DNA of 63,595 nt, filler included, from Cladosporium halotolerans (taxonomy: Eukaryota): NCBI RefSeq assembly GCF_011745625.1. It is 14 parts of 14 records of this genome, joined end to end, with 100 filler letters (N's around TTAATTAATTAA, not from the genome) between each part and the next. Parts side by side here need not be neighbours in the genome. Positions count along the whole stretch, not along the records: positions 4,732 to 9,320 come from NW_027191685.1; 13 more parts are not named here. One strand, given 5' to 3'. This document shows positions 1 to 59,273 of the stretch, one piece after another (the first letter of the stretch is position 1; every line of letters starts with the position of its first letter). Both the position numbers and the translations under genes were made by a program. Under the pieces are notes generated by a model. The model had not been told where the DNA came from and made no database searches. It saw nothing but the letters and a program-made list of their open reading frames with translations.

Positions 1-2633
1 AGGAGGTCTTGGGCGGTGGGTAAGCAGGACTCAGCCCGAAGGAAGGCTCGAGGGGTTGATCTCAACAGCCCTGTGATGGCCCTTGCCTGGCTGTTCAGCA
101 ATAGCTGTACTTTCTCCAACCGGTCTTTTTGGCCCCTCCACCAGATCTCCGACCCGTACATCGCCACAGAGCTGACTGAGGCCACAACCACTCTCCGCAT
201 CAAGCTGACAGACAAGCCGCCATTGCTCCTGCTGAGACAAGATACCCGCTGTAGAGCTCCTTTGGCGCTGGCTAGCCTGTTTTCGAAGTGGGTTTTGAAC
301 GACAGCTTCGAATCCAGCCAGAAGCCGAGCCATTTGGTCGCCTCCTGCTTGAGGGTGAAGGTCTGCTCTCCGATACGGACGACTGCATCTTTTGCTGCAT
401 GTAGAATCTTACGACACCTGCTGAAGACGACTACTTCAGTCTTGCTGACTTCGAAACCGACTTTGTTATCGGATCCCCATTGTATTGCATCCCCGGCAAT
501 GTGCTCGAGCTTCCTTGTGCCTTCTTCCAAGGCTTCGCATTCTGTCACTAGCCCGATGTCGTCCACGAATGAGATGGCTTGAAGCATGGGGTGTCTGTCT
601 TCTAGCCACTGGAACATTGCGCTCACAGATAGGATGAACAGCACCGGCGATATCGGTGATCCTTGCGGCAGGCCAGCTTGAATGTTGCGGGTCTCGCCCG
701 TCCTTCCGTCGATCACCAACATGGCTCGACGGTCTGACAAGAACGATTCCACCCAGCGCACGATGTTGCCGGCTATGCCGACTTGTATCATCCGCCGGAG
801 TAGTCTCTGCTTGTCGACCCGGTCAAACGCACCTTTGACATCTAGGAGTAATGCGAGTGTGATTCGCTTCTGACTCCATGCGTTCTCAACTTTTGCGACC
901 AGCTGAGCTACCGCATCTGATGTTCCCCGTCCTCGACGGCAGCCGAACTGCCCCCGGTGGAAGATCTCGTTTGCTTCACAGTGGGACGCGATCCAAGTTG
1001 CGACCGCCCTCTCCACCACTTTGCCGAGGCAGCTGAGCAGGCTGATCACTCGATATGCTTTCGCAGCGGTGTATGTAGGTTTCCCTTGCTTCCGCAGTAG
1101 GATGCCCTTTGCGGTCTTCCATGTGCACGGGTGAAATCCTGTCCTTATGCACCCTTGCACGAGGGCTGTCACGCGGTCTTCTGCCCACCGCCACAACAGT
1201 CTTAATATTTTGAAGCCAATCCCGTCAACGCCGGGGGCTTTGCTGACCGACTGTGTGAACAGAGCTTCGCGGACTTGTTTCGCGCTTACACCAGTGCTCG
1301 TGTCTGGAACTTGGATGTCTTCGTTGTCCACGGCTTGGGGTGGAAATGCCTGCGCCATGAAAATGTCTTCCTTCTCCTCGGCTGTCGCCGCGATCTTGCC
1401 CGGCTGGCCGTCAGTGCTTGCTACCTTGATTGCCGGTGTGTGTGACGGCACCTGAGGTTTGGTATATCTGAGCGCTCGCCAGCATCTTGCGGGATCAGAC
1501 GCCAATTTCGAGCTTTCGTCGGTCGGGAAGACGCCCTCAAGAAAGCGCTCCCAAGCCAGTCTCTTGGCTCTCCGGATGTATGTGTAATAGTCGTTTCTCA
1601 CCCGGCGGTACTCGTCGAAGCTGGTGCGGCCGTCATTGTGAGCACGTCGAGCGCTCCCGAACAGCCTTCTCTGCTGTCTGATCTCGTCCGTCCACCAGCG
1701 CTTCGATCGTGGTCTCGGCGCTTTACCGGCGGCATGTCTGTCCAGTACAGCTCGTAGGCTGTCTTGGATCCATAGTGCTTCGGCTTCGAGTTCCGTCGGT
1801 GATGTTGCCCACGCATTGATCAGCGACCTTCCTTCACTCAGCTCGAGCCAATGTTCACTCGCGGCCTCGAGGGCTTGTTCATCTGAGCAAAGTCGATCGA
1901 TGTCCCAGATGTGCGCGACGCTCATCTTCCCCTCTAGAAAGACTGCGTTTAGTGACATCCACTCAAAGACGATTACCTCATGGTCGGACGTTGTGGCCAG
2001 TGACTCGTCGATCTCCCACGTGACCAGTGCTCCGACCCTGCGGGTACTCAGGGTCAAGTCGATTATTGATCTACAGTTCTTCCCACACCTCGTGGGCTGG
2101 TGGTCGTTATTGTTGATGATGAGCTCGCGCTTCTCGATCAATCTCTCCACCGTCCCTGCGTTCTGCCTGCCTGCCACCCACGGGTCCCACAAGGGACTGC
2201 GAGCATTGAAGTCGCCTGCGAGTATGGTTCGGCCCTCGGTGAGTCGCGACACATCTACGTGGTCTATCGTGTATCCTCCGCCTTGCACCCTGGCTTTGTT
2301 GTATACGTTTATCAGCCTCGTCCTTCGAGCTTTCCGGCGGTCCACTGTTTCCCAGACGTCCAGGCACTGAATATGTGGACTATCCACCAGATCAGTTCGC
2401 TCTTCAAATACAAAGCGGTCTAGTGCGTCGTTTCGGATGGCTAGCGCTACTCTTGTCTCTCGCTTTGCACATTCCGGCCACCGTATCTGAAATCCCGGAT
2501 GGCCAATCACGTGTTTCTTTCCCACGTACGGCTCTTGTAGGCACGCCACTTCGGCTCCTCGCTCCACGGCCGCCTCCAGTGCGGCTATCGTCGCCACAGC
2601 CGTGCCGTTGCAGTTATGTTGTATCACTATCAT
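1..2633 (-). CDS. pol: LINE ORF2 (APE endonuclease + reverse transcriptase), 3'-partial
   Basis: Hand translation from ATG 2633: MIVIQHNCNG...CLQEPYV...ILAGDFNARS...IIDLTLS...TSDHEVI (APE motifs), AYRVISLLSCLGKVVE, and SFVDDIG near 569 in the same frame. Absent from the ORF track, consistent with no stop before the window edge. Confidence 0.92.
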   Translation of the reverse strand, partial: MIVIQHNCNGTAVATIAALEAAVERGAEVACLQEPYVGKKHVIGHPGFQIRWPECAKRETRVALAIRNDALDRFVFEERTDLVDSPHIQCLDVWETVDRRKARRTRLINVYNKARVQGGGYTIDHVDVSRLTEGRTILAGDFNARSPLWDPWVAGRQNAGTVERLIEKRELIINNNDHQPTRCGKNCRSIIDLTLSTRRVGALVTWEIDESLATTSDHEVIVFEWMSLNAVFLEGKMSVAHIWDIDRLCSDEQALEAASEHWLELSEGRSLINAWATSPTELEAEALWIQDSLRAVLDRHAAGKAPRPRSKRWWTDEIRQQRRLFGSARRAHNDGRTSFDEYRRVRNDYYTYIRRAKRLAWERFLEGVFPTDESSKLASDPARCWRALRYTKPQVPSHTPAIKVASTDGQPGKIAATAEEKEDIFMAQAFPPQAVDNEDIQVPDTSTGVSAKQVREALFTQSVSKAPGVDGIGFKILRLLWRWAEDRVTALVQGCIRTGFHPCTWKTAKGILLRKQGKPTYTAAKAYRVISLLSCLGKVVERAVATWIASHCEANEIFHRGQFGCRRGRGTSDAVAQLVAKVENAWSQKRITLALLLDVKGAFDRVDKQRLLRRMIQVGIAGNIVRWVESFLSDRRAMLVIDGRTGETRNIQAGLPQGSPISPVLFILSVSAMFQWLEDRHPMLQAISFVDDIGLVTECEALEEGTRKLEHIAGDAIQWGSDNKVGFEVSKTEVVVFSRCRKILHAAKDAVVRIGEQTFTLKQEATKWLGFWLDSKLSFKTHFENRLASAKGALQRVSCLSRSNGGLSVSLMRRVVVASVSSVAMYGSEIWWRGQKDRLEKVQLLLNSQARAITGLLRSTPRAFLRAESCLPTAQDL

Positions 2634-4338
2634 CGTCAACGGACATGTGCGTCGGGTCGCTGGAGCTGAGGATCTGGGTCGCCCTCACGAACTGTTTAGT
2701 CCTTGGCCGGAGTTCCCTTGTTGGTCGCGGCGACGATTGATCCCTGGGCAGTGGCTCTGGTGTGCCAGTGTCCGAAGGCATCGGGATCATATGTATGGGG
2801 GTGGCTCGGTCTGGGTCAGGCGTCGTCACCTCCATTTCTGCCTCATCTCCCTGGATCGCAGGCTCGTCTTGTTCTGGTGCCGTCTCCCTCACCGGCGGGC
2901 TGCTGCGCATTTCGGTCTCCTTCTGCTGGCGTGTCTGTCGGCTCGATCTCCGTTCGGGGCAACGTCGCGATGTTGCCGGGTGTGGTCCTCCACAGTTCGC
3001 GCATTTTGCCACGTGGTGCTCACATGGCCCTGATCTGATGCTGCAGCTCTCGGCAGTACATTCGTGCTTACTCCCTTCATGCTCGCCTGCACACACAAAA
3101 CACTTGGCCTCTTCAGTGCATTTGCCGAAGTGGTCTCGGCCGCAGCAGCGCATGCACATCCCACCTTCTCCTCGTTCCCAGAATCTTTCTACTTCATGGC
3201 GTCTGCCCCCAAAGGACAGTCCCTTTGCTAGGATCACATCCGCCGCCTTCTTGCTTTTTACGGTCAAGACTAGTGTCGACCTCTTGATGCTTCCATTGTC
3301 GAAACGTTCGGCCAGCGTGTCGCCTTTGATCCAACGCGGCGCGTAAGGCAACCTTTCATCTGTCATCAGTTCGATCTCCTCTCGAGCTACTTCTAGCCCT
3401 CTCTCTGTCATATAGCGATCTAGCGCGACGCCGTGCACCCGCAGCTTCAGCCACTTTTCCGTCTTTTCCATGTAGGCAACTTCAGGGTCTAGCTCCTTTA
3501 CAGCAGCCATCACGGCGGATGCATAGCTGAGCAGCTCGTCTGCGCATGCGTTCTCGCTCATCACTCCTGTCAAGTTGCCCTTGCCCGTGTATGCCATTTG
3601 CGTCAATCTCACCGTCACATGCGCCCTCGAATGAGCAAGGGCTTTGTTCACTTCGAACATAATGTCCCTAGGGTCGCAATCATGCGACTGTACATTTCTG
3701 ACGAAGAGTACTCGGCGCTGGCCACGAGGGTGTTTTTTCAACTTTTTCTTACCGTTCGTGACCGTAGTCCATCCAGTGCCTGCTCCAGATTCTGTAATGT
3801 TGGCCCAGCTGGGCTGCGTCGCTTGCGCCGATAGTGGACGCGCTTTTCTGTTGGATGTCTCCGCTGTGCCTCTCGGGAAGGCACTGTTTCCTGACAGGGG
3901 CGGACTCGCTCCTGTCTCTTGCTTTGGTGCCCGTAAAACTGTCATCACTGTGTTCATGAGCTGCGTGAGTTGCGTCTGCCCCTTCCTGATCTCTTCCACC
4001 TCTGCTCGGAGAGATCGCACGTCTTCCGTACAGCCAGTGGTGGCGTTAGGCCCCAGGGGTACACGTAGAGCTTTCGCGATGGCATCTTCGATCGCTTGTA
4101 GGAGCTCATCGCCGTGCACGCCAAAGGCTGAACATATGTCCGTCTTCCGCTTCTTTGGGTTCACTGGTTTTGTGGCGTATGCCTGCTGTTCCTCCCAACT
4201 CTGCAATCTGCCTCCTCGGATTTGAGGGGGAGAGAACTGAAACTGGCTTCCAATTGGTTCGGAGGCTTCCCCGCACGTTTCAGACCCTTGAACGTCACTC
4301 GAGGCTGGCCCTCCGCCACCTTTACTGCGGGCTGACAT
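2614..4338 (-). CDS. gag: LINE ORF1 gag-like nucleic-acid-binding protein
   Basis: ORF 2614-4350 (first ATG 4338) with CMRCCGRDHFGKC, CFVCAGEHEGSKHEC and CANCGGPHPATSRRC knuckles; overlaps the ORF2 start by 20 bp. Confidence 0.9.
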   Translation of the reverse strand: MSARSKGGGGPASSDVQGSETCGEASEPIGSQFQFSPPQIRGGRLQSWEEQQAYATKPVNPKKRKTDICSAFGVHGDELLQAIEDAIAKALRVPLGPNATTGCTEDVRSLRAEVEEIRKGQTQLTQLMNTVMTVLRAPKQETGASPPLSGNSAFPRGTAETSNRKARPLSAQATQPSWANITESGAGTGWTTVTNGKKKLKKHPRGQRRVLFVRNVQSHDCDPRDIMFEVNKALAHSRAHVTVRLTQMAYTGKGNLTGVMSENACADELLSYASAVMAAVKELDPEVAYMEKTEKWLKLRVHGVALDRYMTERGLEVAREEIELMTDERLPYAPRWIKGDTLAERFDNGSIKRSTLVLTVKSKKAADVILAKGLSFGGRRHEVERFWERGEGGMCMRCCGRDHFGKCTEEAKCFVCAGEHEGSKHECTAESCSIRSGPCEHHVAKCANCGGPHPATSRRCPERRSSRQTRQQKETEMRSSPPVRETAPEQDEPAIQGDEAEMEVTTPDPDRATPIHMIPMPSDTGTPEPLPRDQSSPRPTRELRPRTKQFVRATQILSSSDPTHMSVDDDSDTT

Positions 4339-4631
4339 GCCCGCCAGCAAGGCGCCTGGGATCTTGGTAGTATGCGCTTGATCAGCTCACTTTGCGCTTC
4401 CTAATGATGTAAAAATTGACCCTGTCTGTGAGAAAGTCGAAAAGAAGTCGCGCATCTTGTTTGACGCAGTGCCCTGGAAATGATACTCGACTAGATAGAA
4501 GCTACTGCGCACACCCGCTTTTGGCTTGTGGCTAGACGTCTTCCCTGGCTCGTGCACATCCCTGACTCGTGCACACTTTGGAAGCTCGACAACAACGCGC
4601 TTCAACACGCGATATCTTCCTAACCATGGCT

Positions 4632-4731: not shown

Positions 4732-4890
4732 TCGACCTCGGTGCGTGAGACGCGTTGTCGGCTTGGACGCGTCAACGCGGGCGACGCGCCCTAGTCCGGC
4801 TGCGACGGCGGGCGCACAGCGGCAGCCATTGACAAGTGCGCCTAGAAGGCACAATATCTACGTGATGAATAGCTTTTTCTTCAATGAATT
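4732..4890 (-). mobile_element. 5' end fragment of a family B LINE (5' UTR + degenerate gag start)
   Basis: ATG 4829 reads MAAAVRPPSQPD*GASPALTRPSRQRVSRTEV versus MAAAARPLPQPDNSASPGVARLGRPRASRTEID at 11826; upstream DNA is also similar. Confidence 0.8.
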
Positions 4891-4922
4891 CAACAATCCG
4901 AATTTTCTGACCCATTTGTTCT

Positions 4923-5610
4923 TCTCCCACGTCTGGTACCTCGCTGGGCCTTAGTGGAGTCATCCCCACGCTGCAGTAAGCACTGCGCAAGGTCCCCACT
5001 AAAACCATGCGACCTGGTCAACATTTTGACACCACTGTGAAGAAATGTCGTTGCTACGGTAAACTTCGACTGTCGCCTCGACCTTAAGACCATCGCATTG
5101 CACGCCCGTAATGCAGAATACAATCCCAAGGTAAGGGCATTCTCATGGTAGGGTAAGCTCTTTCTGACTGTTCTCCAAGCGTTTCGCAGCCGCGGTTGTG
5201 CGCATACGTGAGCCCAAGACGACTGCCCTATCTTCGCATCTGGCAAGATAGTCGTCACGGGTGCGAAGTCTGAAGATGACGTTAAGCTTGCGAGTCGCAA
5301 GTACACGCGTGTGCTTCAAAAGCTGAGCTTCAATACGGAGTTTACAGAGTTCAAGATACAACACATCATTGCTTCTTGCGACATCAAATCCCCGGTCCGG
5401 CTCGAGGGCCTGGCCAACCGGCATCACATGTTCAGCTCCTACGAACCTGAGCTCTTCCCGGGTCTGATATATCGCATGATGAAGCCAAAAGTCGTTTTGC
5501 TGATCTTCGTTTCTGGAAAACTTGTCTTGACCGGCGCCAAGGTACGGGAAGGACTGTACCAGGCCTTCGAGCTCATATACCCGGTGCTGTCTGACTTTCG
5601 CAAGACTTGA
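4923..5610 (+). pseudogene. TBP: TATA-box binding protein paralog, 5'-truncated and frameshifted
   Basis: Exons ~4923-4975, 5043-5130 and 5180-5610 give [53 protein letters not shown]...IFASGK...[31 protein letters not shown] introns 4976-5042 and 5131-5179. One base missing near 5228 (GCC CT ATC TTC). In-frame TGA at 4908-4910 upstream. Confidence 0.93.
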
Positions 5611-6445
5611 GCTGTCTTGTCTTGTCGGATCCCACCCGTGAACGATGTTTCACCCTTCTTGCTGGGCATGCAGTCTTTCGAAGAACATGACGTGGACGAT
5701 CCTTGTGATGTGAACGGGTTTCTGTCTTTATTCATCTCAGAAGCAAGTCGCAGTCTCTTTTCGACATCCGAATGCTGATTACTGCAATCTGTCACAAGCA
5801 ACTGATTTCGGGTCTCATCTGTGCCATCCCGTGCACAAAGCTTTTTACGTTAGGGACGATTTGCTTCTCATCATACAGATTGTCACTCTGTTCAGAGTTG
5901 GAGACGGTCACACCGCCGCTATTGCGATCTTACAGCATGAGGCGCGAGACCAGCCTTGGACAGAATGCCGAGGGCCCTACGCGCACCATGGCTACCGATG
6001 AACACCTCCACGGGAAAGTGAGGATCCTTGACAGCTCGTCGACTTTCATGGTCTGCCCCAATCCGGTGAGAAGAGATTGCGGAGGACGACGTGCACGTGG
6101 TACAGATAGTTGGAAACTGGCCTTAAGCATGACTAAATGGTTAAGTGTTTGTGCAGGCGCGGTCTTCACAAAGGTATTGTACGATAACCCTTTGCTTTTT
6201 CATCATTCAGTTTCCCCGCGCTTCTTTCCTTATTAACTTGCAGACCTTTCTGCCGTATACGGAAATTGCCAGGGAAGCTACGCGCATCGTGCAAGCGTTG
6301 GCGAAACCAGGCAATAGGCCTATGTTAACGATGAGTAACAACATCCGGACGGAAATCTGGCATTTCCTCTGCTAGATGGCCATCCAAAGACAGCAAAGCT
6401 AATCCACAGGAGAACTTTCTGTAATCGTGGGTAACCTTTTCGTCT

Positions 6446-8689
6446 TCAGACGCCCAAACGCGGTCGTCTGACATGGGCGCTGCCAACCGTGCTGCCCTTT
6501 CGTTTGAGCATTGTGGTCTGCTTGTTGATCAACTCGGATTTGTGAAAGTCAATGATAAGGACGCGCTTCAACTCCGTATTCCACAAAATGTTTTCGCGCC
6601 TCAAATCACCATGACGGACCCCCAGCCGGTATATTTTGTGAGCTGACTTCATGGCGGCTTTTCTGGTACTAGATGCCTCTTGCCACTGTGACTGTGTGAG
6701 GGGCTCTCCGCCCCAGCCCATCAAAAGCATATGTCGAATGTCGCTGGCCCCATGGAGATGATATGTCTGTGCCATGTCAATGGATCCAAGGAAAACAGGG
6801 ACAGCAGAACCTTGCACGCCGCGGAGGATCTGGTAGAAACCCGCTTCGCGAGAAACCCTACTCCATAGCTCTGCGGTGGTCCCTTTCCCGACAACGGTAT
6901 ACCCGTACAAGGAACAACGAAGTTTAAAAGGGGCACCTGCCCGTCCGCACACTCCAAAAGGCTCACAGGAGTCCACGTCTTCATCAAGCTGCCTCTGGAG
7001 GGCGCGAACCATTTCCGCGAGAGTTATTTCGTGCCTCTCCGTCTCTTCGCCCCTGCGGTGGTCTGAGACATTCGGACATCCGAGATCCAGTGCGCCCCCA
7101 TCTCGAAGGCCGAGCAAGCATTGTTGAGTGCAGTAACTTGATGACATGCGTCGCGTATGGCCGCCTCCGCCCGGCTGTGATGTCGTAGGACGTTGCGCTG
7201 AAGGCTGTGGAGGCGACGAAGCGACTTGGCTGTGGTTACGCTTCCGGTGATGTGCGGTGGCGTTTGAGTCCGATTCTGATGAGGCCGACGCGTCGTCTGG
7301 GGCCGTTGAATCACCCGGTGAAGGCGTACATACGGGGTGTGACCGCGTGCTGCGTCGCCGTATTCCCCCATCAGGTGATCCAATGGGTGATGAAGGCACG
7401 TATTCCGAGCCTGGTGGAGTCTGATTTAGTTGCTCTTCCGGTATTTGCGACCGTGCATGCTCAAAGTCTGTCGCCCAGACGCGTAGTATCTTCTTTGCCT
7501 CGTTCCTCCACGCGTTGCTTCGAAGTGATGTCGCGCAGCACATAAGAGTGAAGCACAACAGCCGAGCAACAGCGGTGAGAGGGTAGTGATGGCTTTCATC
7601 GCCAACAGACGGCACGTCTTTGTTCGGCACGCAGAGATGGTAGTAAAGCCTACTTGGCTCATCCTCCGGCACGTAAAGGAATACCAGCGCTATTCCTGTC
7701 GATATGTAGGAGTACGCTAGACCTTCTTGTATCATGACATGGTATTCTTGGACCAGTGCCGCGCCAGTCAGCCGCATTGCGTTGTACGTCAGCTTTTCTG
7801 CTGTTTCTGTGGGAACAGTCTCTGAATTGACGACTTCATCCCAGACATCCATCGGTCGCAGGCCCGCGCAGAGGTTTTCTACAGATAATTTGTGTGGCGG
7901 CTTGTACTCGACTGTCATCAAGAGAGTGCTCGTGGAATCGTTCAAGCGATTGACGCAAAATTGGTCGGGTTGCATCCTGCCTGACTTTACGTCGGTCTCG
8001 CGAACTTCGGCCGCCTCATCATCAAGCGCGTTCGCATGGTTGTCGAAACGCAGGCCATGGCCAAGTCGAAGCTCTTTGCATGCTGCCGGGATCGAGCAAA
8101 GGGCAGACGCAACATCCTGGACATGGCGATCCTTACCAGATTGTTCGATGAACTCGAGATCTTTTTCGCTGCTGATGGGATTCCTGCGAAGCGACCGTCC
8201 GAGATCTTCCAACGCAATGACAGGCGAGAACAAGCGTGGCGCGTCCGCTCCAGCAGGTTTATCAAGCTTCCATCCAGGGTTCTCCGACTTCCCGGACATG
8301 TTTGGGACCTCGTCTGGTGGACCCGCAAGCTCTGACGGATGCAAAGATGATCTTCCGCCTTTGCGTAGTCGTCGATATAGCTCGAAGTCGGAGTTATGCT
8401 CGGTGATGCTGGGGCTGACATCTGCTAAAGCGTCCAGAATGTGCTCACCAAGGTAATATTCGTCCGCGTCGGAGAAGATCAAATAGTCAGAAAAGCACCG
8501 TATGCTCGTCGTCAAGTGGACAGGGAGTGTGTCCTCCAGTCCAGTCGAACCAGTCCGAATGATGACGACAGTTCTGTCCGCACCCGGCAAGCTTCCACAT
8601 GTCCCTAACGTCCGTCCACCTGTGCCGGGAATCCACCTGTGCCGGGACACTTCTTCTGATCTTCGCTCTATATCCATTATCCACACCAT
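6446..8689 (-). CDS. Chimeric ORF: GT31-like glycosyltransferase N-terminal fragment (~8258-8689) fused to a Spok-like PD-(D/E)XK nuclease / Cys-cluster / kinase protein (6446-8257)
   Basis: 747-aa open frame. N-part TVVIIRTGST...LPVHL...YLIFSD...GWKLDK resembles fungal GT31. Then QPDQFCV...TVEYKPPHKL, C-x3-C-x13-C-x5-H-x8-H (YCTQQCLLGL...CPNVSDH...H), and kinase motifs YTVVGKG, HGDLRRENIL, IIDF. Start codon uncertain. Confidence 0.78.
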   Translation of the reverse strand: MVWIMDIERRSEEVSRHRWIPGTGGRTLGTCGSLPGADRTVVIIRTGSTGLEDTLPVHLTTSIRCFSDYLIFSDADEYYLGEHILDALADVSPSITEHNSDFELYRRLRKGGRSSLHPSELAGPPDEVPNMSGKSENPGWKLDKPAGADAPRLFSPVIALEDLGRSLRRNPISSEKDLEFIEQSGKDRHVQDVASALCSIPAACKELRLGHGLRFDNHANALDDEAAEVRETDVKSGRMQPDQFCVNRLNDSTSTLLMTVEYKPPHKLSVENLCAGLRPMDVWDEVVNSETVPTETAEKLTYNAMRLTGAALVQEYHVMIQEGLAYSYISTGIALVFLYVPEDEPSRLYYHLCVPNKDVPSVGDESHHYPLTAVARLLCFTLMCCATSLRSNAWRNEAKKILRVWATDFEHARSQIPEEQLNQTPPGSEYVPSSPIGSPDGGIRRRSTRSHPVCTPSPGDSTAPDDASASSESDSNATAHHRKRNHSQVASSPPQPSAQRPTTSQPGGGGHTRRMSSSYCTQQCLLGLRDGGALDLGCPNVSDHRRGEETERHEITLAEMVRALQRQLDEDVDSCEPFGVCGRAGAPFKLRCSLYGYTVVGKGTTAELWSRVSREAGFYQILRGVQGSAVPVFLGSIDMAQTYHLHGASDIRHMLLMGWGGEPLTQSQWQEASSTRKAAMKSAHKIYRLGVRHGDLRRENILWNTELKRVLIIDFHKSELINKQTTMLKRKGSTVGSAHVRRPRLGV

Positions 8690-9420
8690 AGCTCATTGAT
8701 CACTCATCTTCTGCTATTCTCCGGTCTTTTGCCTACTGGCCCGACCATTTTTCGGAACATCGATTGCGTAAGTAGCTTTGGCATCGTCCAAAGCGTCGAC
8801 GTCGCTGACCAACGCTTCTCCTTTCTAGCTCGCTCAGAAGCGACACGTAGTTCCGAAAAGGTTGAAATTAGATGCGCTAGTTGCGCTGAGGTCAGGAGGA
8901 TGCTGTGAATCTAAGGATTTGCCGCTATGGACCGGACCGTTAACGAAGGTTGCGGCATGCAGATATGCGCCAGGCTGGTCTTTCAGGAGGATCAGTATCC
9001 AGGCCCGCTGACTAGGGCACAACGCAGAGACGCTCCGATGTCGCGATGCATGTAGCTTGTGATTCGCTCGGACAGCGCTTCATGGCAAAGCGGTCTTGCC
9101 GCCCGCCCCGCCCGCGATGTAGCAAAGTCTCAGCGGTTTTGAGATCAACGCGAGCGGTCAGTGTCCCGCAGCAGGCGAAGCAGCTCCATGGGGAAATTCA
9201 TAGAAATCATGAAAGTCCACTACCTCCGCTTTTCCGAAAGTTTTCGAATTTCCCAGAATGGCTTGGCTCTCATGGATTTTGAGAAATAATTGGGAGGCAG
9301 AAAGGCCCACGCAGGTGTCANNNNNNNNNNNNNNNNNNNNNNNNNNNNNNNNNNNNNNNNNNNNTTAATTAATTAANNNNNNNNNNNNNNNNNNNNNNNN
9401 NNNNNNNNNNNNNNNNNNNN

Positions 9421-10372
9421 GGAGCTTCGTGAGGTCCCTGGTCCACCAGCGTTTCTCGTACGGAGACGGCTTGGCTTTGGGAGTCAGCGAGTTGACCGCG
9501 TCCAGGACCGCCTGCATCAAACGGTCTGCTTGTCTCTGGACGTCGCCACAAGATGGTCGATCGTCTAATGCTCGGGAAATGGATTCTCGAATCGCGTTCC
9601 AGGGAGCATTCTTGAACAACAACCGAGGCTGGGTAGCGCGATCTGGGACTTCGACGTCAAAAGACGTCTCGATCGCGCGATGATCTGACCCGTGATCCGT
9701 GTCGTGGATCTTGCACTTGAGGACGTCCGACGCCAACTCCTGCGACGCTAACATGAGGTCGATCGTGGTGGCGTGCATTGCATTCTGCCATGTCTTGGTC
9801 CCGCGGGGCAAGAGGCTCTCGAGGCTCCATCTGTTCATGAAGTCGATGATGGGGTCTGCTTCGCCCTGTCGCGTCGGCAGCACCGCGTCTCCTCCCCACA
9901 GCTGGTCATGCCGATTGAAGTCGCCGGCGACCACAACATCGAGGCGTGGGCCACCGCGGCGCTGCGCCGAGCTTATTGCCATGTCGAGCAGCATCACCGC
10001 CTCGCTCAGCGCTGCACCATTTATTCCTTCCACATACACCGACGCGAGCAACACTGCCCTGTCCGGCAGCCGCAGCAGAGTCACTGTGAGATCTGCCGAC
10101 GGCACCCTCACCTGCTCACACTCGATGTCTTTGCGCACCCACAGCATGCTTCGCATCGCCCACCGGCCATCGTGTCTCTCACTCGGCAGGATGGCCGTCC
10201 AGCCCTGATGCCCCATCGGGCTCGTCCTCACCTTCCCATCCATCTCGACCACGTACGGTTCGCTGATGGCAAGGGCCGTATACTCCTTCAGACTTGCGTC
10301 GTTCATCACGCTGTGCTGCACCTCTCGCCGTTTCTGCATGTTCAGTTGTAGGATTTGCATCGGCTTAGACAT
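9421..10372 (-). CDS. pol: LINE ORF2 APE endonuclease domain, 3'-partial
   Basis: MSKPMQILQLNMQK...AISEPY...VAGDFNRH...TTIDLML...GSDHRAI...KRWWTRDL. Confidence 0.9.
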
Positions 10373-11826
10373 CAGTTGCCGGATAGAGGATACGACACTG
10401 GCGGCTGGGCGATTCGGTGGGGCCCGTCGCATATGGCACATTTGGGCTGTTCTGCCTGACAGTCATTGTGGCGGTGGCCTGGCTGAGCACACCTGCTACA
10501 AACCTGCTCCTTGGTGCACGAAAAGGCTTTGTGTCCGAGGCTTAGACATCTGAAGCACTGCATCGGTCCACGCCTGGGCTCGAACACCCGGGTGAAGGCC
10601 GATTCTCCGTCCACAATGAAGTATTGGCCCTCCAGAAGCCTCGCGGCGTCTGCGCGCTTGGTCACGTACACGACCATGGATCCGTACGCCTTTTGTACGT
10701 CCTTCCGGCTGAGCCACGATATCTTCGCAATCCTCACCTCGTTTTCCTTCTCTAGCATCTCCACGGTGCCCGTTCGAAGCTCGCCGTGCTCGTCCAACAC
10801 TGCCGTCCGGCACGCATTGTCCACCTTGACCGGGTACCACTGATCTCGCAGCACGCGCGACCCCACCGCTTTAGTTTTCTCAACCACCTCCTTCACCCGT
10901 GCAAGCTCACTCTCGTCTCGACAAGTGACGCGGATACGGGCAGCATGACGAGGGTCCCTCGTGACTGCCACGCACCGCCAGCCGCTTCCTTCCTCTCCTT
11001 CACGCATCTCTTTCTCGATATTCTGTCTGATCTTGCTCGCACTTGCATTGCCCCTCTCCGCCTCTTCCACGTCGGTCACGTCCACGGTGCAGTACAGCGT
11101 ATCCGTGAAAGTCGATGGGGTCGTCTGATTGGAGATTGTCCTGAGGTTGCTAGGGCGGCTGCCGGGCGGCGTGCGCGCGACATCGGCATACGATGGGTTC
11201 GGGCTCGAGTGTTGGACGCTGGATAACTGCTTTTCGACAATGGCCGTTACCTGCTCCTGTACAATGCTAGTGACCTGTTGCTGTACGATACTAGTGACCT
11301 GTTGCTGAACGATACCAGTGACTGTTTCGGTGACAATCTTCATGACTTCTCGCTGCACGATACTCTTGACCTCTTGCTGTACGACCTGCGTGACTTCCCG
11401 GCGCACTACCTCACTCACCTGTTGTTGCACCGCTCTCTTAACTTCTTCCCCGATGGCATGTACGATTTCGTGCTGCACGGTGACCTTCAACTGCTCTTGC
11501 ACCACCTCTCTGACCTCATCTGCCACAGCCTCCTTTACTTGCCCGACGTCCGGTACCTGGTCGATGGCCTCCTGGACCAGCGCGAAGCGCTCGTCGACAG
11601 AATCGTGCACGCCGGCGATGGCCTTCAGTATCGTCTCCAGCCGAGACTTTTGGACATCGCTGCTTTTGTCGGCGCCTTGACTCGGGATCCTCTCCCTTGC
11701 CAGCGTGCCTCGGTGCAATTTTCTGTAGTCAATCTCGGTGCGCGAAGCTCGCGGCCGGCCCAGACGTGCCACTCCCGGCGACGCGCTGTTGTCAGGTTGC
11801 GGCAACGGGCGCGCAGCGGCGGCCAT
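10366..11826 (-). CDS. gag: LINE ORF1 gag-like protein with a +1 frameshift in the third zinc knuckle
   Basis: Q/V-rich coiled-coil repeats, CFRCLSLGHKAFSC, CSRCAQPGHRHNDC. Removing one C near 10416 restores CAICDGPHESPSRQCRILYPATDV*. Confidence 0.85.
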
Positions 11827-12009
11827 TGATGGATATGCCAACTAGGCACAATATTTACTTAAAAAGCGTCCTTTTTCTCAATAATAAAAACAAGCCTGCG
11901 AAGCCATAATGCCATCTAATGATCCACCACCAAAAGCACCCCGCCTTACCTTTTTAAGCTAAGCCCAAACGCGCTAAAACCAAGATCCAACACGATTATT
12001 GGCCTTATA

Positions 12010-12150: not shown

Positions 12151-12642
12151 CTCTTCTCGTGTCTTCCTGGTTGGAGGCAGAAATCTCAGGTTTGCAGGCG
12201 ATGTGCACACTCCAGTATGCGTGCTGCAACCAGTATGCGAGGTACGCGGTCAGTTTGCTCGACTTTCCATCTAGCTAGTGATCGCTACGCCAATCAATAA
12301 AAACATTCCCCGCCACGCGCACAGCCAACATCGACTTTCACCAGGACCTTTGATCGTTCATAACTCAATACAAATTTAAACTTTGGCGCGTTGAAAGCGC
12401 CAAGAATGCTTTATGGATGGTGTGCCTTAGTAATCACTGTAGCGAGCTGGCAGTCTCGATTCACGACCTCTTGTCACGGGCTGTTTCGTGCGCTCTTCGA
12501 CTACTGGCTCTATAGGAATGTCGCCTTCGGACTCATTGCAGCCGTTTGCTTTTCGGTGTTCGTCGCGGCCTTCGAGTTGACACACTTGACTAAGCTTCGC
12601 GCTGTTTAAGTGCCATTGTGCCCGCTTCTCCTTCGCTCTAGC

Positions 12643-13547
12643 ACCACCTTCTCCTCGTTCCCAGAATCTTTCTACTTCATAGCGTCTGCCTCCAAAGGAC
12701 AGTCCCTTTGCTAGGATCGCATCCGCCGCCTTCTTGCTTTTTATGGTCAAGACTAGTGTCGACCTCTTGATGCTTCCATTTTTGAAACGTTCGGCCAGTG
12801 TGTCGCCTTGATCCAACGCGGCGCGTAAGGAAACCTTTTACCTGTCATCAGTTCGAGCTCCTCTCGAGCTACTTCTAGCCCTCTCTCTGTCATATAGCGA
12901 TCTAGCGCGACGCCGTGCACCCGCAGCTTCAGCCTCTCTTCCGTCTTTTCCATGTCGGCAATTTCAGGGTCTAGCTTCTTTACAGCAGCCATCACGGCGG
13001 GTGCATAGCTGAGCAGCTCGTCTGCGCATGCGTTCTCGCTCATCACTCCTGTCAAGTTGCCCTTGCCCGTGTATGCCATTTGGGTCAACCTCACCGTCAC
13101 ATGCGCCCGCGATTGAGCAAGGGCTTTGTTCACTCCAAATATAATGTCTCTAGGGTCGCGATCATGCGACTGTACATCTCTGACGAAGAGTACTCGGCGC
13201 TGGCCACGAGAGTGTTTTTTCAACTTTTTTTTACCGTTCGTGACCGTATTCCATCCAGTGCCTGCTCCAAATTCTGTGATATTGGCCCAGCTGGGCTGCG
13301 TCACTTGCGCCGATAGTGGACGTGCTTTTCTGTTGGATGTCTCAGCTGTGCCTCTCGGGAAGGCACTGTTTCCTGACAGGGGCGGACTCGCGCCTATGTC
13401 GTGCCTCGGCGCTCGTAACACTGTCGTCACCGTGTTCATGAGCTGCGTGAGTTGCGTTTGCCCCTTCCTGATCCCTTCCACCCCTGCTCGGAGAGATCGC
13501 ACGTCTTCCGTACAGCCAGTGGTGGCGTTAGGCCCCAGAGGCACACG
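12643..13547 (-). pseudogene. gag: Internal gag fragment of the family A LINE
   Basis: Near-identical to ~3162-4066; truncated at both ends; 1-bp deletion near 12810. Confidence 0.92.
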
Positions 13548-14414
13548 TGAAACTGCATTATTCTGCCTGAAATGCGACGCGTTTCCGGCAGAATAGTAGA
13601 GTAGGTATCTTGAACAAGGCTTGGGGTACCTAGGGGACAAAGTTACCTCACAATCTGCAGAGATCACCTTACAATGAGAGTGGAACAAGAAGCTGACAGC
13701 AGCTCAAAGTGGAATGCGTCATGCAACAGATAACCACTCAATCAGCACATGTACATTTCACCACTACTATCAACGTTCCGCCGGCGCCGCAGGCATTATG
13801 AATATCATCATGGTGATTACAGGGCGGCACTGACGAAGACGAAGCCCTCGGCAATGCTGGGGAGTGTTACTATGTTGTTGTGACATTTTTTTTTTCTTCC
13901 TTTGTCAACGTGTTTCATCAGCACCCCGCGCATACCAGTACCCCGCGCACTCTCTCAGCATACCAGCACTTCCATTACCAAAAACACGACCACAAACGAT
14001 CAGATNNNNNNNNNNNNNNNNNNNNNNNNNNNNNNNNNNNNNNNNNNNNTTAATTAATTAANNNNNNNNNNNNNNNNNNNNNNNNNNNNNNNNNNNNNNN
14101 NNNNNTGGTCTTCTATCTGTGCTCTCGCGTTGATCCATTACCGTACAATCCTGCTCGCTATCCCGCCTTCATCAAGGCGCCACGGCTTTTGGGTCCAGTG
14201 CCCTTCTACTGGTCTGTGGTGATATTCGCAACGACTGACCCTCGTCCCTTGCTACCTACCCCTCTCCTCTGTTCTCCACGCATCACACGCTGGAATCCTT
14301 CGGCATTGGAGGTGTACGCCGTCTTGTTCGTATTTATTACCCCCTAAGAATGAGCTGCCGAAACTGAGGCATGTCACCGAGCCGGGCTGCTTGGTGTGCG
14401 CCTCTTGCCCACTC

Positions 14415-18781: not shown

Positions 18782-18882
18782 GAGGTAAGGACTGTATATA
18801 TGTAGCCAACCTGAAACACTAGCGTATGATAAGCTGATAACAGCTGCAGTGTTTAGGGGCAGGAACCCAGTTTCACAACAAC
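18782..18882 (+). mobile_element. Probable LINE 3' terminus (stem-loop plus short CAA tail) abutting a gag relic
   Basis: aaacact...agctgataacagct gc agtgttt hairpin followed by cacaacaaca; gag homology starts right after. Confidence 0.45.
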
Positions 18883-18884
18883 AG

Positions 18885-39551: not shown

Positions 39552-40089
39552 CCGTCGACAGGGAGGAACCGTCGACGAGAAGATGCCGTCGACCGGAAGG
39601 AACCGTCGACGGGGAGGAACCGTCGACGAGAAGATGCCGTCGACAGGAAGGAACCGTCGACGGGGAGATGCCGTCGACAGGAAGGAACCGTCGACAGGGA
39701 GGAACCGTCGACGGGGAGATGCCGTCGACAGGAAGGAACCGTCGACAGGGAGATGCCGTCGACAGGAAGGAACCGTCGACAGGGAGGAACCGTCGACGAG
39801 AAGATGCCGTCGACCGGAAGGAAACGTCGACAGGGAGGAACCGTCGACGAGAAGATGCCGTCGACCGGAAGGAACCGTCGACAGGGAGGAGCCGTCGACG
39901 GGGAGATGCCGTCGACAGGAAGGAACCGTCGACAGGAAGAAACCGTCGACAGGGAGGAACCGTCGACGGGGAGATGCCGTCGACAGGAAGGAACCGTCGA
40001 CAGGGAGGAACCGTCGACGAGAAGATGCCGTCGACCGGAAGGAACCGTCGACAGGAAGGAACCATCGACGGGGGAAAGATGCCGTCGAC
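39552..40089 (+). repeat. 17-bp minisatellite, 32 units: near-invariant CCGTCGAC core plus a 9-nt purine-rich variant
   Basis: Variants agggaggaa, gagaagatg, cggaaggaa, aggaaggaa and ggggagatg recur. Confidence 0.95.
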
Positions 40090-54997: not shown

Positions 54998-55188
54998 TGC
55001 TCTTCTGCCTGACGCTGTTGCTCTTCTGCCTGACGCTGTTGCTCTTCTGCCTGACGCTGTTGCTCTTCTGCCTGACGCTGTTGCTCTTCTGCCTGATGCT
55101 GTTGCTCTTCTGCACGTCTTTGTCCCTCCAGGGCCTTTGCAAGTTGTTCGCGCAAGTCGCCGTAGTCCGATACATTATTGTTGGCCAT
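54998..55188 (-). CDS. N-terminal coiled coil with 21-bp heptad repeats (AEEQQRQ)n, like the start of Spok-family proteins; 3'-partial
   Basis: MANNNVSDYGDLREQLAKALEGQRRAEEQQHQ(AEEQQRQ)n; ~5.5 copies of ctcttctgcctgacgctgttg at 54998-55113. Confidence 0.55.
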
Positions 55189-56937
55189 TATGTTCGATTC
55201 TTTAGGAGAACCGGCGGTGGGTCGGTCGAGTCAAACCACTGGCCGAAGTGGCACAGAAAATAATTTGGTTGTCAATCACCGTTTGATGGGTGAGAACAGG
55301 CCAAAAGAGCGGTACCTTCCATATTGATTGCTGTTTGCTTGATACCAAGTCTCTAGGCTGCAGCCTCAACTTACGAACGCGTCGTGTTGGGCCCTCTTTC
55401 AGCCGGGCCGGGCCGTTTCCCCGCACGCAGATGGCACGTGTGGACATGCATCAAGCATCCTGACTTCTTTTATTTTAGGGTAGTGAGGATCATATCGCAC
55501 TCTCGAGGTTCGCACTTCCCAGCCACCAGACCACGCGTTGCTTGCACAAAGTAGCTCAGAGGCAGGTCTAGCGATACGCTGCGGCCTTCCGCTCCATCTC
55601 ATAGCTTCTGCATCTGCTCCTTGTTCTCTCATCCTTGCAGCACTGGGAAATGCAGTCGTCGCTTGTTGGCCCTCTTAGGTGATGCAATGGCCCCTGAAAC
55701 AGGCTTCATCGACCCGCGAGTCGCCTTTGATCGGGAAGCGCGCCAGAGCCGACATTGCTCCACCCAAGGCGCGACCTTGACACAACATCTTGCTTCCTCC
55801 GATGCACCACGACAGTGCACCCATGAAGTCAACCGCACTGTAGCAATGTTCGCTCAGCGCACATTTACGATGCACGCGTGCCTGTTACCCAAAACCTATA
55901 TTCCGAAGCCTGATCGTTCAGCCCACCGCTCCATGGGCTCTTTTCCCGCCCAACCTACAGCGGTCCCTTTCTCTGAAAAGGGGCATACATCTAGGCTTCG
56001 AACCAGCCACGGCAAGACTCTCGAGCAACAACGCACTGCCACCACAGCTCCTTCGCCGATGGTACGCCTTGCTATTCGTCACGGAAAGGCTCACGTCAAG
56101 GTCGACCGGGTTGCACACAAAGCTTGGAAGAGAAGGCTCATCGCGAGATACGGCGTCGGCGGTTACAATAACAATGTGGCTTGAGGGACGGCTTGCCCCC
56201 CTCGCAGCCTCTATGGTTGCTAGGGTAAGTCGACAGATTATGAGAGCGCCGATAAAAGCGCGGCTTGCAAATTCTCCACCAGACTTCCTGGTTCACGTCT
56301 TGTCATGTCGCGGTCGCAGATGGGACTGCTAGGTATTACATCTAAAATTGTTCCGTGGTGTTTCTCCCACTCAGGACCGCTAATCCCGAATGAGGTGGCA
56401 AAATAAGTGTGCCGACGTAGCCAAGCAAATCACAACAGAGACGGGGGGTGATGATGCCTTCGCGGGCCGGATTTTTTGATGAGACGTGAACACCAGCAAT
56501 GTGACTGCACATCAGCATGACTTTGGAACACTTCGTTTTTCGACAGATGGAGAACAAGAGGTTTTACCCCTGTAGCCCGTGGCCCCGCCATTGGAAGGCT
56601 GTGCCTGGAGAAGAATCGGTTCATTCGAACAACACCACCCTTGCAACGTGTTACCGGACATGACGCATAGCTCCGCTTTTTGCATCTTCCCTCGATGCCA
56701 TAAATGGGTGAGGTCTCACTCAGGCGGGCCTGATTTCAAGTCTGTCGTTCCTCATGCCTGCTCGTCCTGCTTTGGTCTACTAGCAGTCTCGGCGAAAGGC
56801 TCATAGCGCCATCGACTCGGACCGACATTCGCTCAAAAACTCTGGCGCTTCTTCACAAGAGCCTACTGCGAGACTTCACCTTACTACTTCCATCAGGCTA
56901 CGTCGACACGAAGATCCCTCTCCGCGCGGTTGCAGCA

Positions 56938-58882: not shown

Positions 58883-59273
58883 TCATGGCGCCCAATTCGC
58901 TCCCTCGCAAGTCGTCATACCCTGCGCAAAGTCAACCACACGATCCCAGATCCATCCTGATGTAACTCCAGGCTTAGCCCTTCCCAGCCTTAGATGGACG
59001 TGTGTCTTGCATGATCCATCTTTGTCATAGGAAAATTGCATGCATTCTGGATCCGCCATGCACTTGTGTCTACCTTCATCAATTGAAGAGGCGATCATCG
59101 ATCGGTCCTCGCTCAAATTATCCCAATTTCCCTTGACGGACTTCATCCGAGGCATGGCAAATTTGGTAAAGATCTCTATGTGACGCAAGACTTTTTTCCC
59201 CTGCGAAGCGTTAGGTCAGTATCCGCATTCCAAGGGATCTAGGACAAACTAGCACCCACCGGGTTTTGGTTGA
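58883..59273 (-). CDS. 3' end of a GT31-like fungal glycosyltransferase (5'-partial)
   Basis: Intron with acceptor at ~59201, then GKKVLRHIEIF..F.MPR...NWDNLS...C.ADPECMQFSY..GSC...RLG...SGW..DRV..F...C...W. Confidence 0.7.

What the first reader, a model, noticed from the sequence alone, without database searches (positions are those of the whole stretch)
6446..8689. Spok-like (meiotic-drive toxin/antidote) protein with its N-terminus swapped for a glycosyltransferase fragment
Seen: an uninterrupted 747-aa frame with a PD...EYK nuclease-like motif (~7969-7901), a C-x3-C-x13-C-x5-H-x8-H cluster (~7132-7030) and an atypical kinase (HGDLRRENIL ~6613, IDF). Known: coiled coil + PD-(D/E)XK nuclease + Cys cluster + kinase is the architecture of Podospora Spok spore killers, where killing maps to the nuclease and resistance to the kinase. 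Seen: no coiled coil here. The first ~144 aa look like GT31 and stop at GWKLDK (8258), where GT31 normally continues WKF. Inference: a young chimera that puts a catalytically intact-looking Spok core under a glycosyltransferase promoter. It could be a resistance-only or rewired driver allele.
Basis: partly seen in the sequence, partly recalled or inferred. Interest (0 to 1): 0.82.

Follow-up and report, generated by a model that had tools for sequence, protein, structure and literature searches.

The report
Truncated Spok gene fused to glycosyltransferase fragment
A fungal spore-killer-type (Spok) toxin/antidote gene has lost its front end in a local rearrangement and now reads in frame from a short piece of a nearby glycosyltransferase gene; it is most likely a recent broken copy, not a new kind of driver.

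Summary
ORF 6446-8689(-) is an open 747-aa frame.

- Residues 145-747 are 97% identical to intact 735-756-aa Spok-family proteins. They keep every family-conserved residue of the nuclease motif, the Cys/His cluster and the kinase.
- Residues 33-144 are 93% identical to residues 64-175 of a 458-aa GT31 protein and stop at ...GWKLDK, where GT31 continues WKF.
- Residues 1-32 match nothing.

The GT31 piece is internal. It has no start codon, signal anchor, catalytic core or promoter, so the Spok core is not under a GT31 promoter. The coiled coil and about two-thirds of Spok domain 1 are lost.

Close relatives appear to carry GT31, a tyrosinase and an intact Spok gene as neighbours. The window holds the complementary leftovers of that block (GT31 tail, tyrosinase, Spok start) 46.7 kb away. 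The fusion therefore looks like the loss of about 5 kb between two same-strand neighbours, joined at a 2-nt microhomology, beside a truncated LINE.

No contig shown from three other runs spans the junction, and there is no evidence of expression. My best reading is a recent, probably non-driving relic. An antidote-only allele remains possible. Interest is low to moderate.

The parts
6446..8689 (-). Chimeric ORF, 747 aa plus stop. The public collection holds aa 131-747 of it as a 617-aa protein starting at M131.
   Evidence: P0287 equals P0001 aa 131-747 exactly
8595..8689 (-). Codons 1-32. No similarity to GT31 or to Spok. Read from non-coding-looking DNA. A 16-nt direct duplication (8615-8630 / 8632-8647) lies in this junction zone.
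8258..8594 (-). Internal GT31 fragment, equal to aa 64-175 of the 458-aa P0334. It lacks the start codon, the signal anchor and the Fringe-like catalytic core.
   Evidence: The Fringe-like match in GT31 relatives lies behind the break: P0122 aa 180-271, P0135 aa 203-295. GT31 contigs leave the window above 8594 and below 8258.
8258..8259 (-). Fusion junction. Two bases (AA) are shared by both parents, and the reading frame is kept.
   Evidence: loose ends at 8258 and 8259, read by hand. The GT31 parent continues WKFLPMINRT. The Spok parent is preceded by MYEIVLRYLQ.
8111..8257 (-). Last third or so of Spok domain 1 (aa 145 to about 193). The extent is inferred from the SPOK3 coordinates by motif offset.
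7421..7993 (-). Predicted PD-(D/E)XK nuclease ('killing') domain. D242 and E261-Y-K263 lie at 7966-7901. The domain limits are inferred by an offset of +23 from SPOK3.
7031..7132 (-). Cys/His cluster C-x3-C-x13-C-x5-H-x8-H.
6530..6997 (-). Atypical kinase ('resistance') domain. Catalytic loop HGDLRRENIL at 6613-6584. IDFH at 6553-6542.
   Evidence: Pfam Kdo 23.2 bits against a cut-off of 21.3. The family profile matches the Cdc7 catalytic loop and DFG region, E 3e-6.
8625..9221 (-). Low-copy spacer directly upstream. It has no coding signal. It is 100% identical to one contig of run X1.
9222..11841 (-). LINE-like element on the same strand, with a gag-like ORF and an endonuclease domain. It has no reverse transcriptase, so it is 3'-truncated. 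Repeat depth begins at 9222.
55012..55450 (-). Orphan Spok 5' end: upstream region, start codon and coiled-coil repeats (21 nt, at least 5.5 copies). It runs into the N mask at 54997. It may be the missing front of the same gene.
   Evidence: E 1.8e-7; 97% to P0292 aa 77-114
58892..59200 (-). GT31 C-terminal remnant (aa 354-456 of P0334, 89% identity). It lies next to the tyrosinase gene at 57187-58716(+).

Best explanation
This is a real, recent, 5'-truncated copy of a Spok-family toxin/antidote gene.

**Origin (inferred).** In close relatives a GT31 gene, a tyrosinase gene and an intact Spok gene appear to lie side by side, with GT31 and Spok on the same strand. Here about 5 kb between GT31 codon 175 and Spok codon 132 is gone from this place. 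The ends are joined in frame at a 2-nt microhomology. A second break replaced the front of GT31 (promoter, start codon, signal anchor) with low-copy DNA and a 3'-truncated LINE.

**What is kept and lost (shown).** The ORF keeps the nuclease motif, the Cys/His cluster and the kinase of Spok. It has lost the Spok promoter and 5'UTR, the dimerising coiled coil and about two-thirds of domain 1. The GT31 piece cannot act as a glycosyltransferase.

**Function (inferred).** The frame is open because the event is young and happened to be in frame (about 1 chance in 3). Selection need not be involved. I expect it not to act as a driver. It is either silent and decaying or, if transcribed, at most an antidote-type protein.
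For: 1. Both halves are identified with very strong statistics and a sharp break.
2. Contigs of runs X1, X2 and X4 carry both intact parents. Spok-side contigs run on past 8259 into a normal Spok N-terminus. GT31-side contigs run on past 8258 into WKFLPMINRT. Only 2 nt overlap, which suits end-joining or template switching and does not suit a repeat-driven misassembly.
3. X2 and X4 contigs join the Spok 3' end to the same downstream flank as in the window. An intact gene therefore sits at this place in relatives.
4. Neighbourhood:
   - GT31 P0334 and tyrosinase P0365 carry consecutive locus tags on one 13,083-nt contig.
   - Intact Spok P0292 and tyrosinase P0364 both come from a Logan/ENA contig of 38,659 nt.
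   - The window itself holds a GT31 tail, a tyrosinase and a Spok start together at 55.0-59.2 kb. These are complementary to the pieces in the chimera.
5. The lost part of domain 1 is nowhere in the window.
6. P0001 keeps 124 of 135 family-conserved columns. Ten of the 11 lost lie in the replaced N-terminus, and the eleventh is shared with P0002.
7. No GT31 N-terminal signal lies upstream.
8. 5'-truncated Spok relics are known (Spok-psi-1 and the P. comata fragment; PMC6660238, passages). Another truncated copy with a different foreign N-terminus exists in the same 90% cluster (P0294).
9. The region is rich in LINE pieces and gene fragments.
Against: - No contig shown from X1, X2 or X4 bridges 8258/8259, and 356 records were not shown. 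The junction therefore rests on the window's own assembly alone. The annotated 617-aa protein P0287 comes from that same assembly.
- The 603-aa Spok part has no stop, no frameshift and no lost conserved residue. That also fits a gene still under selection.
- The exact path of the rearrangement is unresolved. It could be a deletion in a second block copy, excision and re-insertion of a 4-kb piece, or template switching.
- That P0292 and P0364 share one contig rests only on equal contig length and equal sources.
- The GT31 piece is more diverged from the intact GT31 contigs (5.9-7.9% nt) than the Spok piece is from intact Spok contigs (2.2-3.1% nt). A single young event does not explain that.
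- Whether domain 1 or the coiled coil is needed for killing or for resistance is not stated in the passages I read.
Confidence: 0.6

Rival explanations
1. It is an expressed antidote-only (resistance) allele. The chimeric or M131-initiated protein is made from a new promoter, either LINE read-through or the spacer. It keeps kinase and Cys-cluster protection against intact paralogs or alleles. It no longer kills, because the coiled coil and most of domain 1 are gone.
For: - The kinase catalytic loop, the DF motif and the Cys/His cluster are intact.
- In SPOK3 these regions carry resistance, and the nuclease-dead K240A allele keeps resistance (PMC6660238, passages).
- Natural Spok remnants that keep only the resistance part were suggested to have served as resistance genes (same paper).
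- A same-strand LINE with open gag and endonuclease ORFs lies upstream.
Against: - There is no expression evidence. Run X22 gave 0 reads on the ORF. Its 9 reads lay only on TBP and only at 90-95% likeness, so it is probably another organism.
- The nuclease motif is also intact, so 'antidote only' is not written in the sequence.
- The native promoter and 5'UTR are lost.
Confidence: 0.2
2. It is a still complete toxin-plus-antidote element whose specificity or regulation was rewired by the new N-terminus.
For: - All conserved residues of the nuclease and kinase are kept.
- SPOK3(1-490) shows that toxicity needs no kinase.
- Domain 1 was proposed to set specificity.
Against: - Invariant residues of domain 1 (an H and a W among 10 conserved columns) and the coiled coil are gone.
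- The new N-terminus is a fragment of a GT-A fold plus 32 random residues. It is not a domain.
- The native promoter is gone.
- The mBio 2022 figure legend says killing requires the nuclease 'and possibly first domains' (PMC9972908, passage).
Confidence: 0.06
3. It is an assembly artefact. The GT31 and Spok pieces were joined wrongly, and the organism carries only intact genes.
For: - No contig shown from three runs bridges the junction, and all three carry both intact parents.
- The window shows at least one single-base indel against all three runs, in the TBP gene at 5229. The assembly may therefore hold errors.
Against: - The overlap at the join is 2 nt, not a repeat.
- The GT31 piece is only about 337 nt with a second junction at its other end. 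Two independent misjoins would be needed.
- The pieces differ by 2-8% from the intact copies in the runs.
- The complementary leftovers of both genes lie 46.7 kb away in the same window.
- Run X1 has the upstream spacer at 100% identity, reaching about 30 nt across the repeat edge at 9222.
Confidence: 0.08

Closest known systems
Podospora Spok1-4 spore-killer genes (single-protein toxin/antidote meiotic drivers; Pfam PF27653 SPOK2_N family)
   Same: - The D...E-x-K nuclease motif has the same 21-residue span as SPOK3 219-240.
- It has the C-x3-C-x13-C-x5-H Cys/His cluster.
- It has an ELK-like kinase with HxDxxxxN and DF motifs.
- The CDS is intron-less.
- Relatives share the whole architecture, including the N-terminal repeat-encoded coiled coil.
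   Different: - It lacks the coiled coil and about two-thirds of domain 1.
- It lacks the native 5' region.
- It carries a foreign 144-aa N-terminus.
- The second His spacing is x8, not x7, and this is family-wide here.
- No drive, killing or resistance phenotype is known for this clade.
- I made no direct alignment to a Podospora sequence, because none was obtainable with the tools.
[quoted passage not shown]
   Same: The 5' end of the gene is lost while the 3' (resistance) part is kept. They sit among transposable elements. They are read as stages of driver decay (PMC6660238, passages).
   Different: Those relics also lack the killing domain and carry stop codons. This copy keeps the nuclease domain, is fully open, and is extended in frame by a piece of another gene.
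Antidote-only wtf genes of Schizosaccharomyces pombe
   Same: The idea is the same: members of a killer family lose the poison and persist as suppressors. The comparison is made in PMC12693581 (passage).
   Different: The proteins and the mechanism are unrelated. Antidote-only status is not shown here.
Fungal GT31 / Fringe-like glycosyltransferases with a C-terminal PAN/Apple domain (such as the protein that UniRef names N-acetylgalactosaminide beta-1,3-galactosyltransferase, P0334)
   Same: Residues 33-144 are 93% identical to aa 64-175 of P0334.
   Different: It has no signal anchor, no Fringe-like core (which lies behind the break) and no PAN domain. It is a fragment, not a member.

Membership tests
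Spok family (SPOK2_N, PF27653; Podospora Spok1-4 and homologs) | Sequence membership in the family | tested here: met
   - aa 145-747 are 97% identical to P0002, which carries PF27653.
- 118 of the 120 listed hits carry PF27653, and the Atlas names it SPOK2_N.
- 2638 cluster representatives match at E<=1e-3.
- The local Pfam copy lacks PF27653: P0002 itself gives no hit. P0001 was therefore not scored against that model directly.
Spok family | N-terminal coiled coil encoded by a variable repeat | tested here: not met
   It is absent from the chimera and present in all 11 aligned homologs. An orphan copy lies at 55188-55012.
Spok family | Domain 1 (SPOK3 aa 40-170 approximately) | tested here: not met
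   Ten family-conserved columns of this region, including an invariant H and W, are replaced. Only about the last 50 residues remain. The lost part is nowhere in the window.
Spok family | PD-(D/E)XK catalytic motif with the catalytic Lys (SPOK3 K240) | tested here: met
   D242 and E261-Y-K263 are present, with the same 21-residue span as SPOK3 219-240. D, E, Y and K are nearly invariant in 70 sequences. The equivalence rests on motif and spacing, not on an alignment to SPOK3.
Spok family | Nuclease fold of domain 2 (HsdR-like) | tested here: inconclusive
   hhalign of the family profile against the first 400 residues of EcoKI HsdR gave probability 0.4%. The template was a single sequence, so the test is insensitive. 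Structure prediction was not accepted.
Spok family | Cys/His cluster C-x3-C-x13-C-x5-H-x7-H before the kinase | tested here: met
   C520, C524, C538, H544 and H553 are present. The last spacing is x8, in all 70 aligned relatives as well.
Spok family | Kinase with a catalytic Asp (SPOK3 D667) and a DFG-like motif | tested here: met
   H693-G-D695-LRREN700 and D714-F-H are present. Pfam Kdo scores 23.2 bits against a cut-off of 21.3. The profile matches Cdc7 at E 3e-6.
Spok family | Killing and resistance (drive) phenotype | not testable with these tools
   This needs crosses or heterologous expression.
GT31 / Fringe-like glycosyltransferase | N-terminal signal anchor | tested here: not met
   aa 1-32 are unlike GT31 aa 1-63. 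A GT31 N-terminal profile finds nothing upstream.
GT31 / Fringe-like glycosyltransferase | Fringe-like catalytic core | tested here: not met
   In relatives the Fringe match lies at aa 180-271 (P0122) and aa 203-295 (P0135), behind the break at aa 165/175.

The most novel reading that the evidence does not exclude
The chimera is transcribed, for example by read-through from the upstream same-strand LINE. It makes a cytosolic protein that has lost killing but keeps the kinase antidote. It would then be a natural snapshot of a Spok driver turning into a suppressor of its intact paralogs or alleles, through a local deletion that captured a neighbour's coding fragment.
Probability: 0.15. Interest if true: 0.6.

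Novelty: new variant of a known kind. Interest (0 to 1): 0.3.

Why it matters
Spok genes are the best-understood single-gene toxin/antidote drivers in fungi. How such drivers decay or turn into resistance alleles is an open question.

This copy is a dated, well-delimited example of the first step. The killer and antidote modules are intact, while the promoter, the coiled coil and most of domain 1 are gone. Intact sister copies are available for comparison. If it is expressed, it gives a natural construct to test whether domain 1 and the coiled coil are needed for killing or for protection. If it is silent, it is simply one more broken Spok copy in a transposon-rich region.

Tried and rejected
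- **Retro-chimera made by LINE template switching: rejected.** There is no A-tract behind the stop codon. The 3' flank is the same as that of the intact copies in X2 and X4.
- **GT31 promoter and native 5' end upstream: rejected.** A MAFFT alignment seemed to pair aa 1-12 with GT31 stem residues. A GT31 N-terminal profile and a shuffle test against the closest GT31 were not significant.
- **The GT31 tail at 59 kb comes from a different paralog: corrected.** I first thought so because it is 45% identical to P0122, whereas orthologs are 73-77% identical there. It is in fact 89% identical to the close GT31 P0334.
- **Conserved GT31-Spok adjacency in more distant relatives: not seen.** In 13 metagenome loci with 47-71% identical homologs, the flanks held neither GT31 nor TBP. 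These relatives are too distant to bear on the block seen in close ones.
- **RIP-like mutation bias: none.** A>G, C>T, G>A and T>C number 32, 33, 30 and 26 in X1.
- **Fold evidence for the nuclease: no result.** hhalign against EcoKI HsdR gave no support. The PDB sequence and profile searches found only kinases. Structure prediction was not accepted.
- **Own genome:** not held.
- **Earlier findings of the scan:** none.
- **RNA run X22:** 9 reads, all on TBP at 90-95% likeness. It is uninformative about expression.
- **Habitat or organism hints from small-share runs:** not used.
- **dN/dS of the Spok part:** not computable, because no DNA of the 97% relatives could be fetched.
- **A Spok-glycosyltransferase chimera in print: none found.** Among the 12 papers listed of the 49 holding at least 3 of the terms spok, chimeric, meiotic drive and glycosyltransferase, none describes one. 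Two further Spok term searches were run.
Full report
**1. What is there**

The minus strand carries an open frame of 747 codons, 8689 to 6446. A stop codon lies two codons before its ATG.
- P241-D242 ... E261-Y-K263 at 7969-7901.
- C520-x3-C524-x13-C538-x5-H544-x8-H553 at 7132-7031.
- H693-GDLRRENIL at 6613-6584.
- IDFH at 6553-6542.

Pfam sees only the kinase catalytic region (Kdo, 23.2 bits against a cut-off of 21.3).

**2. Two parents and a sharp break**

*The Spok part.* A word-indexed search gave 485 relatives at E<=1e-3 among 8000 scored candidates.
- None of the 120 listed covers more than 83% of the query, and none of the 11 that I aligned matches its first 144 residues.
- The best hit, P0002 (735 aa), is 96.9% identical over its residues 132-735, which equal window 8260-6449.
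- An exhaustive HMMER search found 2638 cluster representatives at E<=1e-3.
- Among the best 150, no match starts before query residue 114.
- Of the 120 listed relatives, 118 carry PF27653, which the Atlas names SPOK2_N.

*The N-terminus.* In an alignment with 11 relatives, all have an N-terminal repeat-encoded coiled coil and a conserved block. The window protein lacks both. Homology starts at ...PAGADAPRLFSP.

*The GT31 part.* Residues 31-144 match GT31 proteins: 82/114 identical to P0122, E 1e-51. The closest is a 458-aa protein labelled Cladosporium halotolerans (P0334). Residues 33-144 equal its residues 64-175, with 104/112 identical, after which it reads WKFLPMINRT.

*The first 32 residues.* They are not GT31-like. 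320 of 2000 shuffles score as well, and a profile of the GT31 N-terminus finds nothing upstream.

*Consequence for GT31 activity.* In GT31 relatives the Fringe-like core lies behind the break, at aa 180-271 in P0122 and aa 203-295 in P0135. The GT31 piece is therefore an internal fragment without signal anchor, catalytic core or PAN domain.

**3. What the Spok part keeps and lacks**

According to passages of Vogan et al. 2019 (PMC6660238), SPOK3 has these parts:
- A coiled coil (first 40 aa).
- Domain 1 (about aa 40-170). Its function is unknown, and the authors propose that it sets specificity.
- A PD-(D/E)XK nuclease domain (motif at 219-240). K240A abolishes killing and keeps resistance.
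- A Cys/His cluster.
- A kinase. D667 is needed for resistance.

By motif spacing the break here corresponds to about SPOK3 residue 122, inside domain 1.

I took 135 columns conserved in at least 85% of 53 family rows. The chimera keeps 124 of them. Ten of the 11 lost lie in the replaced N-terminus, and the eleventh is shared with P0002. It differs from P0002 at 18 of 603 positions. Roughly half of those changes fall on either lineage.

The family profile aligns to the catalytic loop and DFG region of Cdc7-type kinases (E 3e-6).

The nuclease assignment rests on the motif and on the literature. My own hhalign test against EcoKI HsdR gave nothing (probability 0.4%). Structure prediction was not accepted.

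**4. Independent reads**

I laid Logan contigs of three runs and raw RNA reads of a fourth on 4732-9320.

*Both parents are intact in X1, X2 and X4.*
- Contigs on the Spok side stop matching at 8259. They run on for 213-255 nt into sequence that I translated by hand as ...MYEIVLRYLQ, the normal Spok N-terminus.
- Contigs on the GT31 side stop matching at 8258. They run on into WKFLPMINRT.
- The two parents overlap by only 2 nt (AA) at the join.

*The GT31 piece is short.* The GT31 contigs also leave the window above 8594, so the piece is about 337 nt.

*The downstream flank is shared.* X2 and X4 contigs link the Spok 3' end to the same downstream flank as in the window.

*Limits.* No record shown bridges the junction, and 356 records were not shown, so these runs neither confirm nor exclude it. 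Nucleotide divergence from the runs is 2.2-3.1% for the Spok part, 5.9-7.9% for the GT31 part and 1-4% for the flank. The RNA run gave 9 reads, all on the TBP gene at 90-95% likeness. It says nothing about expression.

**5. Where the pieces come from**

*The cluster of intact copies.* The 90% cluster of P0002 holds intact 735-756-aa proteins labelled Hortaea werneckii. It also holds an 837-aa Logan/ENA protein (P0292), whose N-terminal extension is the translated upstream region.

*The orphan Spok start.* That upstream region, the start codon and the coiled-coil repeats occur in the window at 55450-55012(-). The match to P0292 aa 77-114 is 97%, the profile E-value is 1.8e-7, and the 21-nt repeat has at least 5.5 copies. 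The repeats run into an N mask.

*The tyrosinase and the GT31 tail.*
- Two kb further lies a tyrosinase gene (57187-58716, +).
- Beyond it lies a GT31 C-terminal remnant (59200-58892, -), 89% identical to P0334 aa 354-456.
- The tyrosinase is 91% identical to a protein whose locus tag is consecutive to that of P0334, on the same 13,083-nt contig.
- It is 90% identical to P0364, from a Logan/ENA contig of 38,659 nt. P0292's contig has the same length and the same sources.

*The inferred block.* Close relatives therefore most likely carry the block GT31(-) - tyrosinase(+) - Spok(-) - flank. The window holds two complementary sets of pieces, 46.7 kb apart and in the same orientation:
- GT31 tail + tyrosinase + Spok start.
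- GT31 aa 64-175 + Spok aa 132-735 + flank.

The lost part of domain 1 is nowhere in the window.

*How the fusion arose (inferred).* The fusion is what is left when about 5 kb between two same-strand neighbours is removed. I cannot tell which of three routes applies:
- A deletion in a second copy of the block.
- Excision and re-insertion of the 4-kb middle piece.
- Replication template switching.

The junction zone upstream of the GT31 piece carries a 16-nt direct duplication. Further upstream come about 530 nt of low-copy DNA, which is 100% identical to one X1 contig. Then comes a same-strand LINE that has gag and endonuclease but no reverse transcriptase.

**6. Is the fusion known elsewhere?**

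- The exact 747-aa protein is not in the 15-billion-protein collection.
- A 617-aa protein identical to its residues 131-747 is in the collection, with names withheld as for the window's own products. That is the same assembly, so it is not independent support.
- No GT31 relative of 30-1308 aa carries a Spok part.
- Another member of the same cluster (P0294, 602 aa, Logan) is a different 5'-truncated copy. It has 63 unrelated residues joined at about residue 209.
- Of 12 unusually long family members, 3 carry foreign Pfam domains: Pkinase_fungal, ABC_tran and DUF7104.
- 5'-truncated Spok remnants are described for Podospora. A Fusarium study excluded 56 homologs for any of three reasons, one being loss of the coiled coil (PMC12693581, passage).
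- I found no paper on a Spok-glycosyltransferase chimera (listings only).

**7. Reading**

*Shown:*
- The ORF, its two parents and the break.
- The intact catalytic motifs.
- The loss of the coiled coil, of most of domain 1 and of all GT31 functional parts.
- Intact parents in related samples.

*Inferred:*
- The origin by a local rearrangement of a GT31-tyrosinase-Spok block.
- The youth of the event. The Spok part is 3% diverged at protein level, and 47 of 50 GT31-conserved columns are kept.
- The likely lack of drive.

An in-frame join has about one chance in three, and a young break has had little time to collect stop codons. The open frame is therefore weak evidence of function.

I put 0.6 on a real, recent, non-driving relic. 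I put 0.2 on an expressed antidote-type allele, 0.06 on a still complete rewired driver and 0.08 on an assembly artefact.

**8. Verdict**

It is a new variant (a unique in-frame fusion) of a known kind (a truncated Spok copy). Interest is 0.3.

Noticed in passing
window 55012-55450 (-): An orphan Spok 5' end: upstream region, ATG at 55188 and at least 5.5 copies of a 21-nt repeat encoding QAEEQQR. It runs into the N mask at 54997, and no Spok sequence follows the mask. It may be the missing front of the chimera's gene.
   Followed up: partly
window 57187-59200: A tyrosinase gene (+) lies next to a GT31 C-terminal remnant (59200-58892, -; 89% identical to P0334 aa 354-456). This is the same adjacency as two consecutive locus tags in a Cladosporium halotolerans contig. 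The rest of that GT31 gene is missing. A repeat (59402-59643, about 70% identical to 22034-22276) lies upstream.
   Followed up: partly
window 6449-8260 compared with cluster members P0285 and P0286: The Spok part is 97% identical to proteins labelled Hortaea werneckii. Its neighbours (GT31, tyrosinase) find their 89-93% relatives only under the label Cladosporium halotolerans, and GT31 proteins labelled H. werneckii are only 62-64% identical. This is a lead for horizontal transfer of the Spok gene between genera, or for mislabelled or contaminated assemblies.
   Followed up: partly
protein P0294 (Logan), matching window 8065-6449: A second, independent 5'-truncated copy of the same Spok clade. 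It has 63 unrelated N-terminal residues joined just before the nuclease domain (about residue 209 of the chimera).
   Followed up: partly
window 5041-5607 (+): A TATA-binding-protein gene convergent with the chimera. The window lacks one C behind 5229 that all contigs of X1, X2 and X4 have, which shifts the frame inside the conserved core. It is either a pseudogene copy or an assembly indel.
   Followed up: partly
window 3-4386 (-), 9222-11841 (-), 12430-13703 (-), 18881-21698 (+): Several LINE-like elements. One has an open 894-aa endonuclease and reverse-transcriptase ORF that runs off the window's start. The gag parts at 3161-4066 and 12644-13548 are 94% identical. The element just upstream of the chimera lacks its reverse transcriptase.
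   Followed up: partly
window 4732-9320, run X1: Contig k-mer depths fall into two classes, about 150-175 and about 31-36. The low class includes the pieces most like the window (8625-9251 with 0 differences). This could mean a multi-copy TBP-Spok block or a mixed or heterozygous sample. It is unresolved.
   Followed up: no
window 39363-40439: A dense array of tandem and inverted repeats (units of tens of bases, 80-92% alike) with open frames on both strands that encode short peptide repeats.
   Followed up: no
window 8615-8647: A 16-nt direct duplication (spacing 17) inside the junction zone between the upstream spacer and the GT31 fragment. The contigs of X1 and X2 that carry the spacer end at 8625 and 8615.
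   Followed up: no
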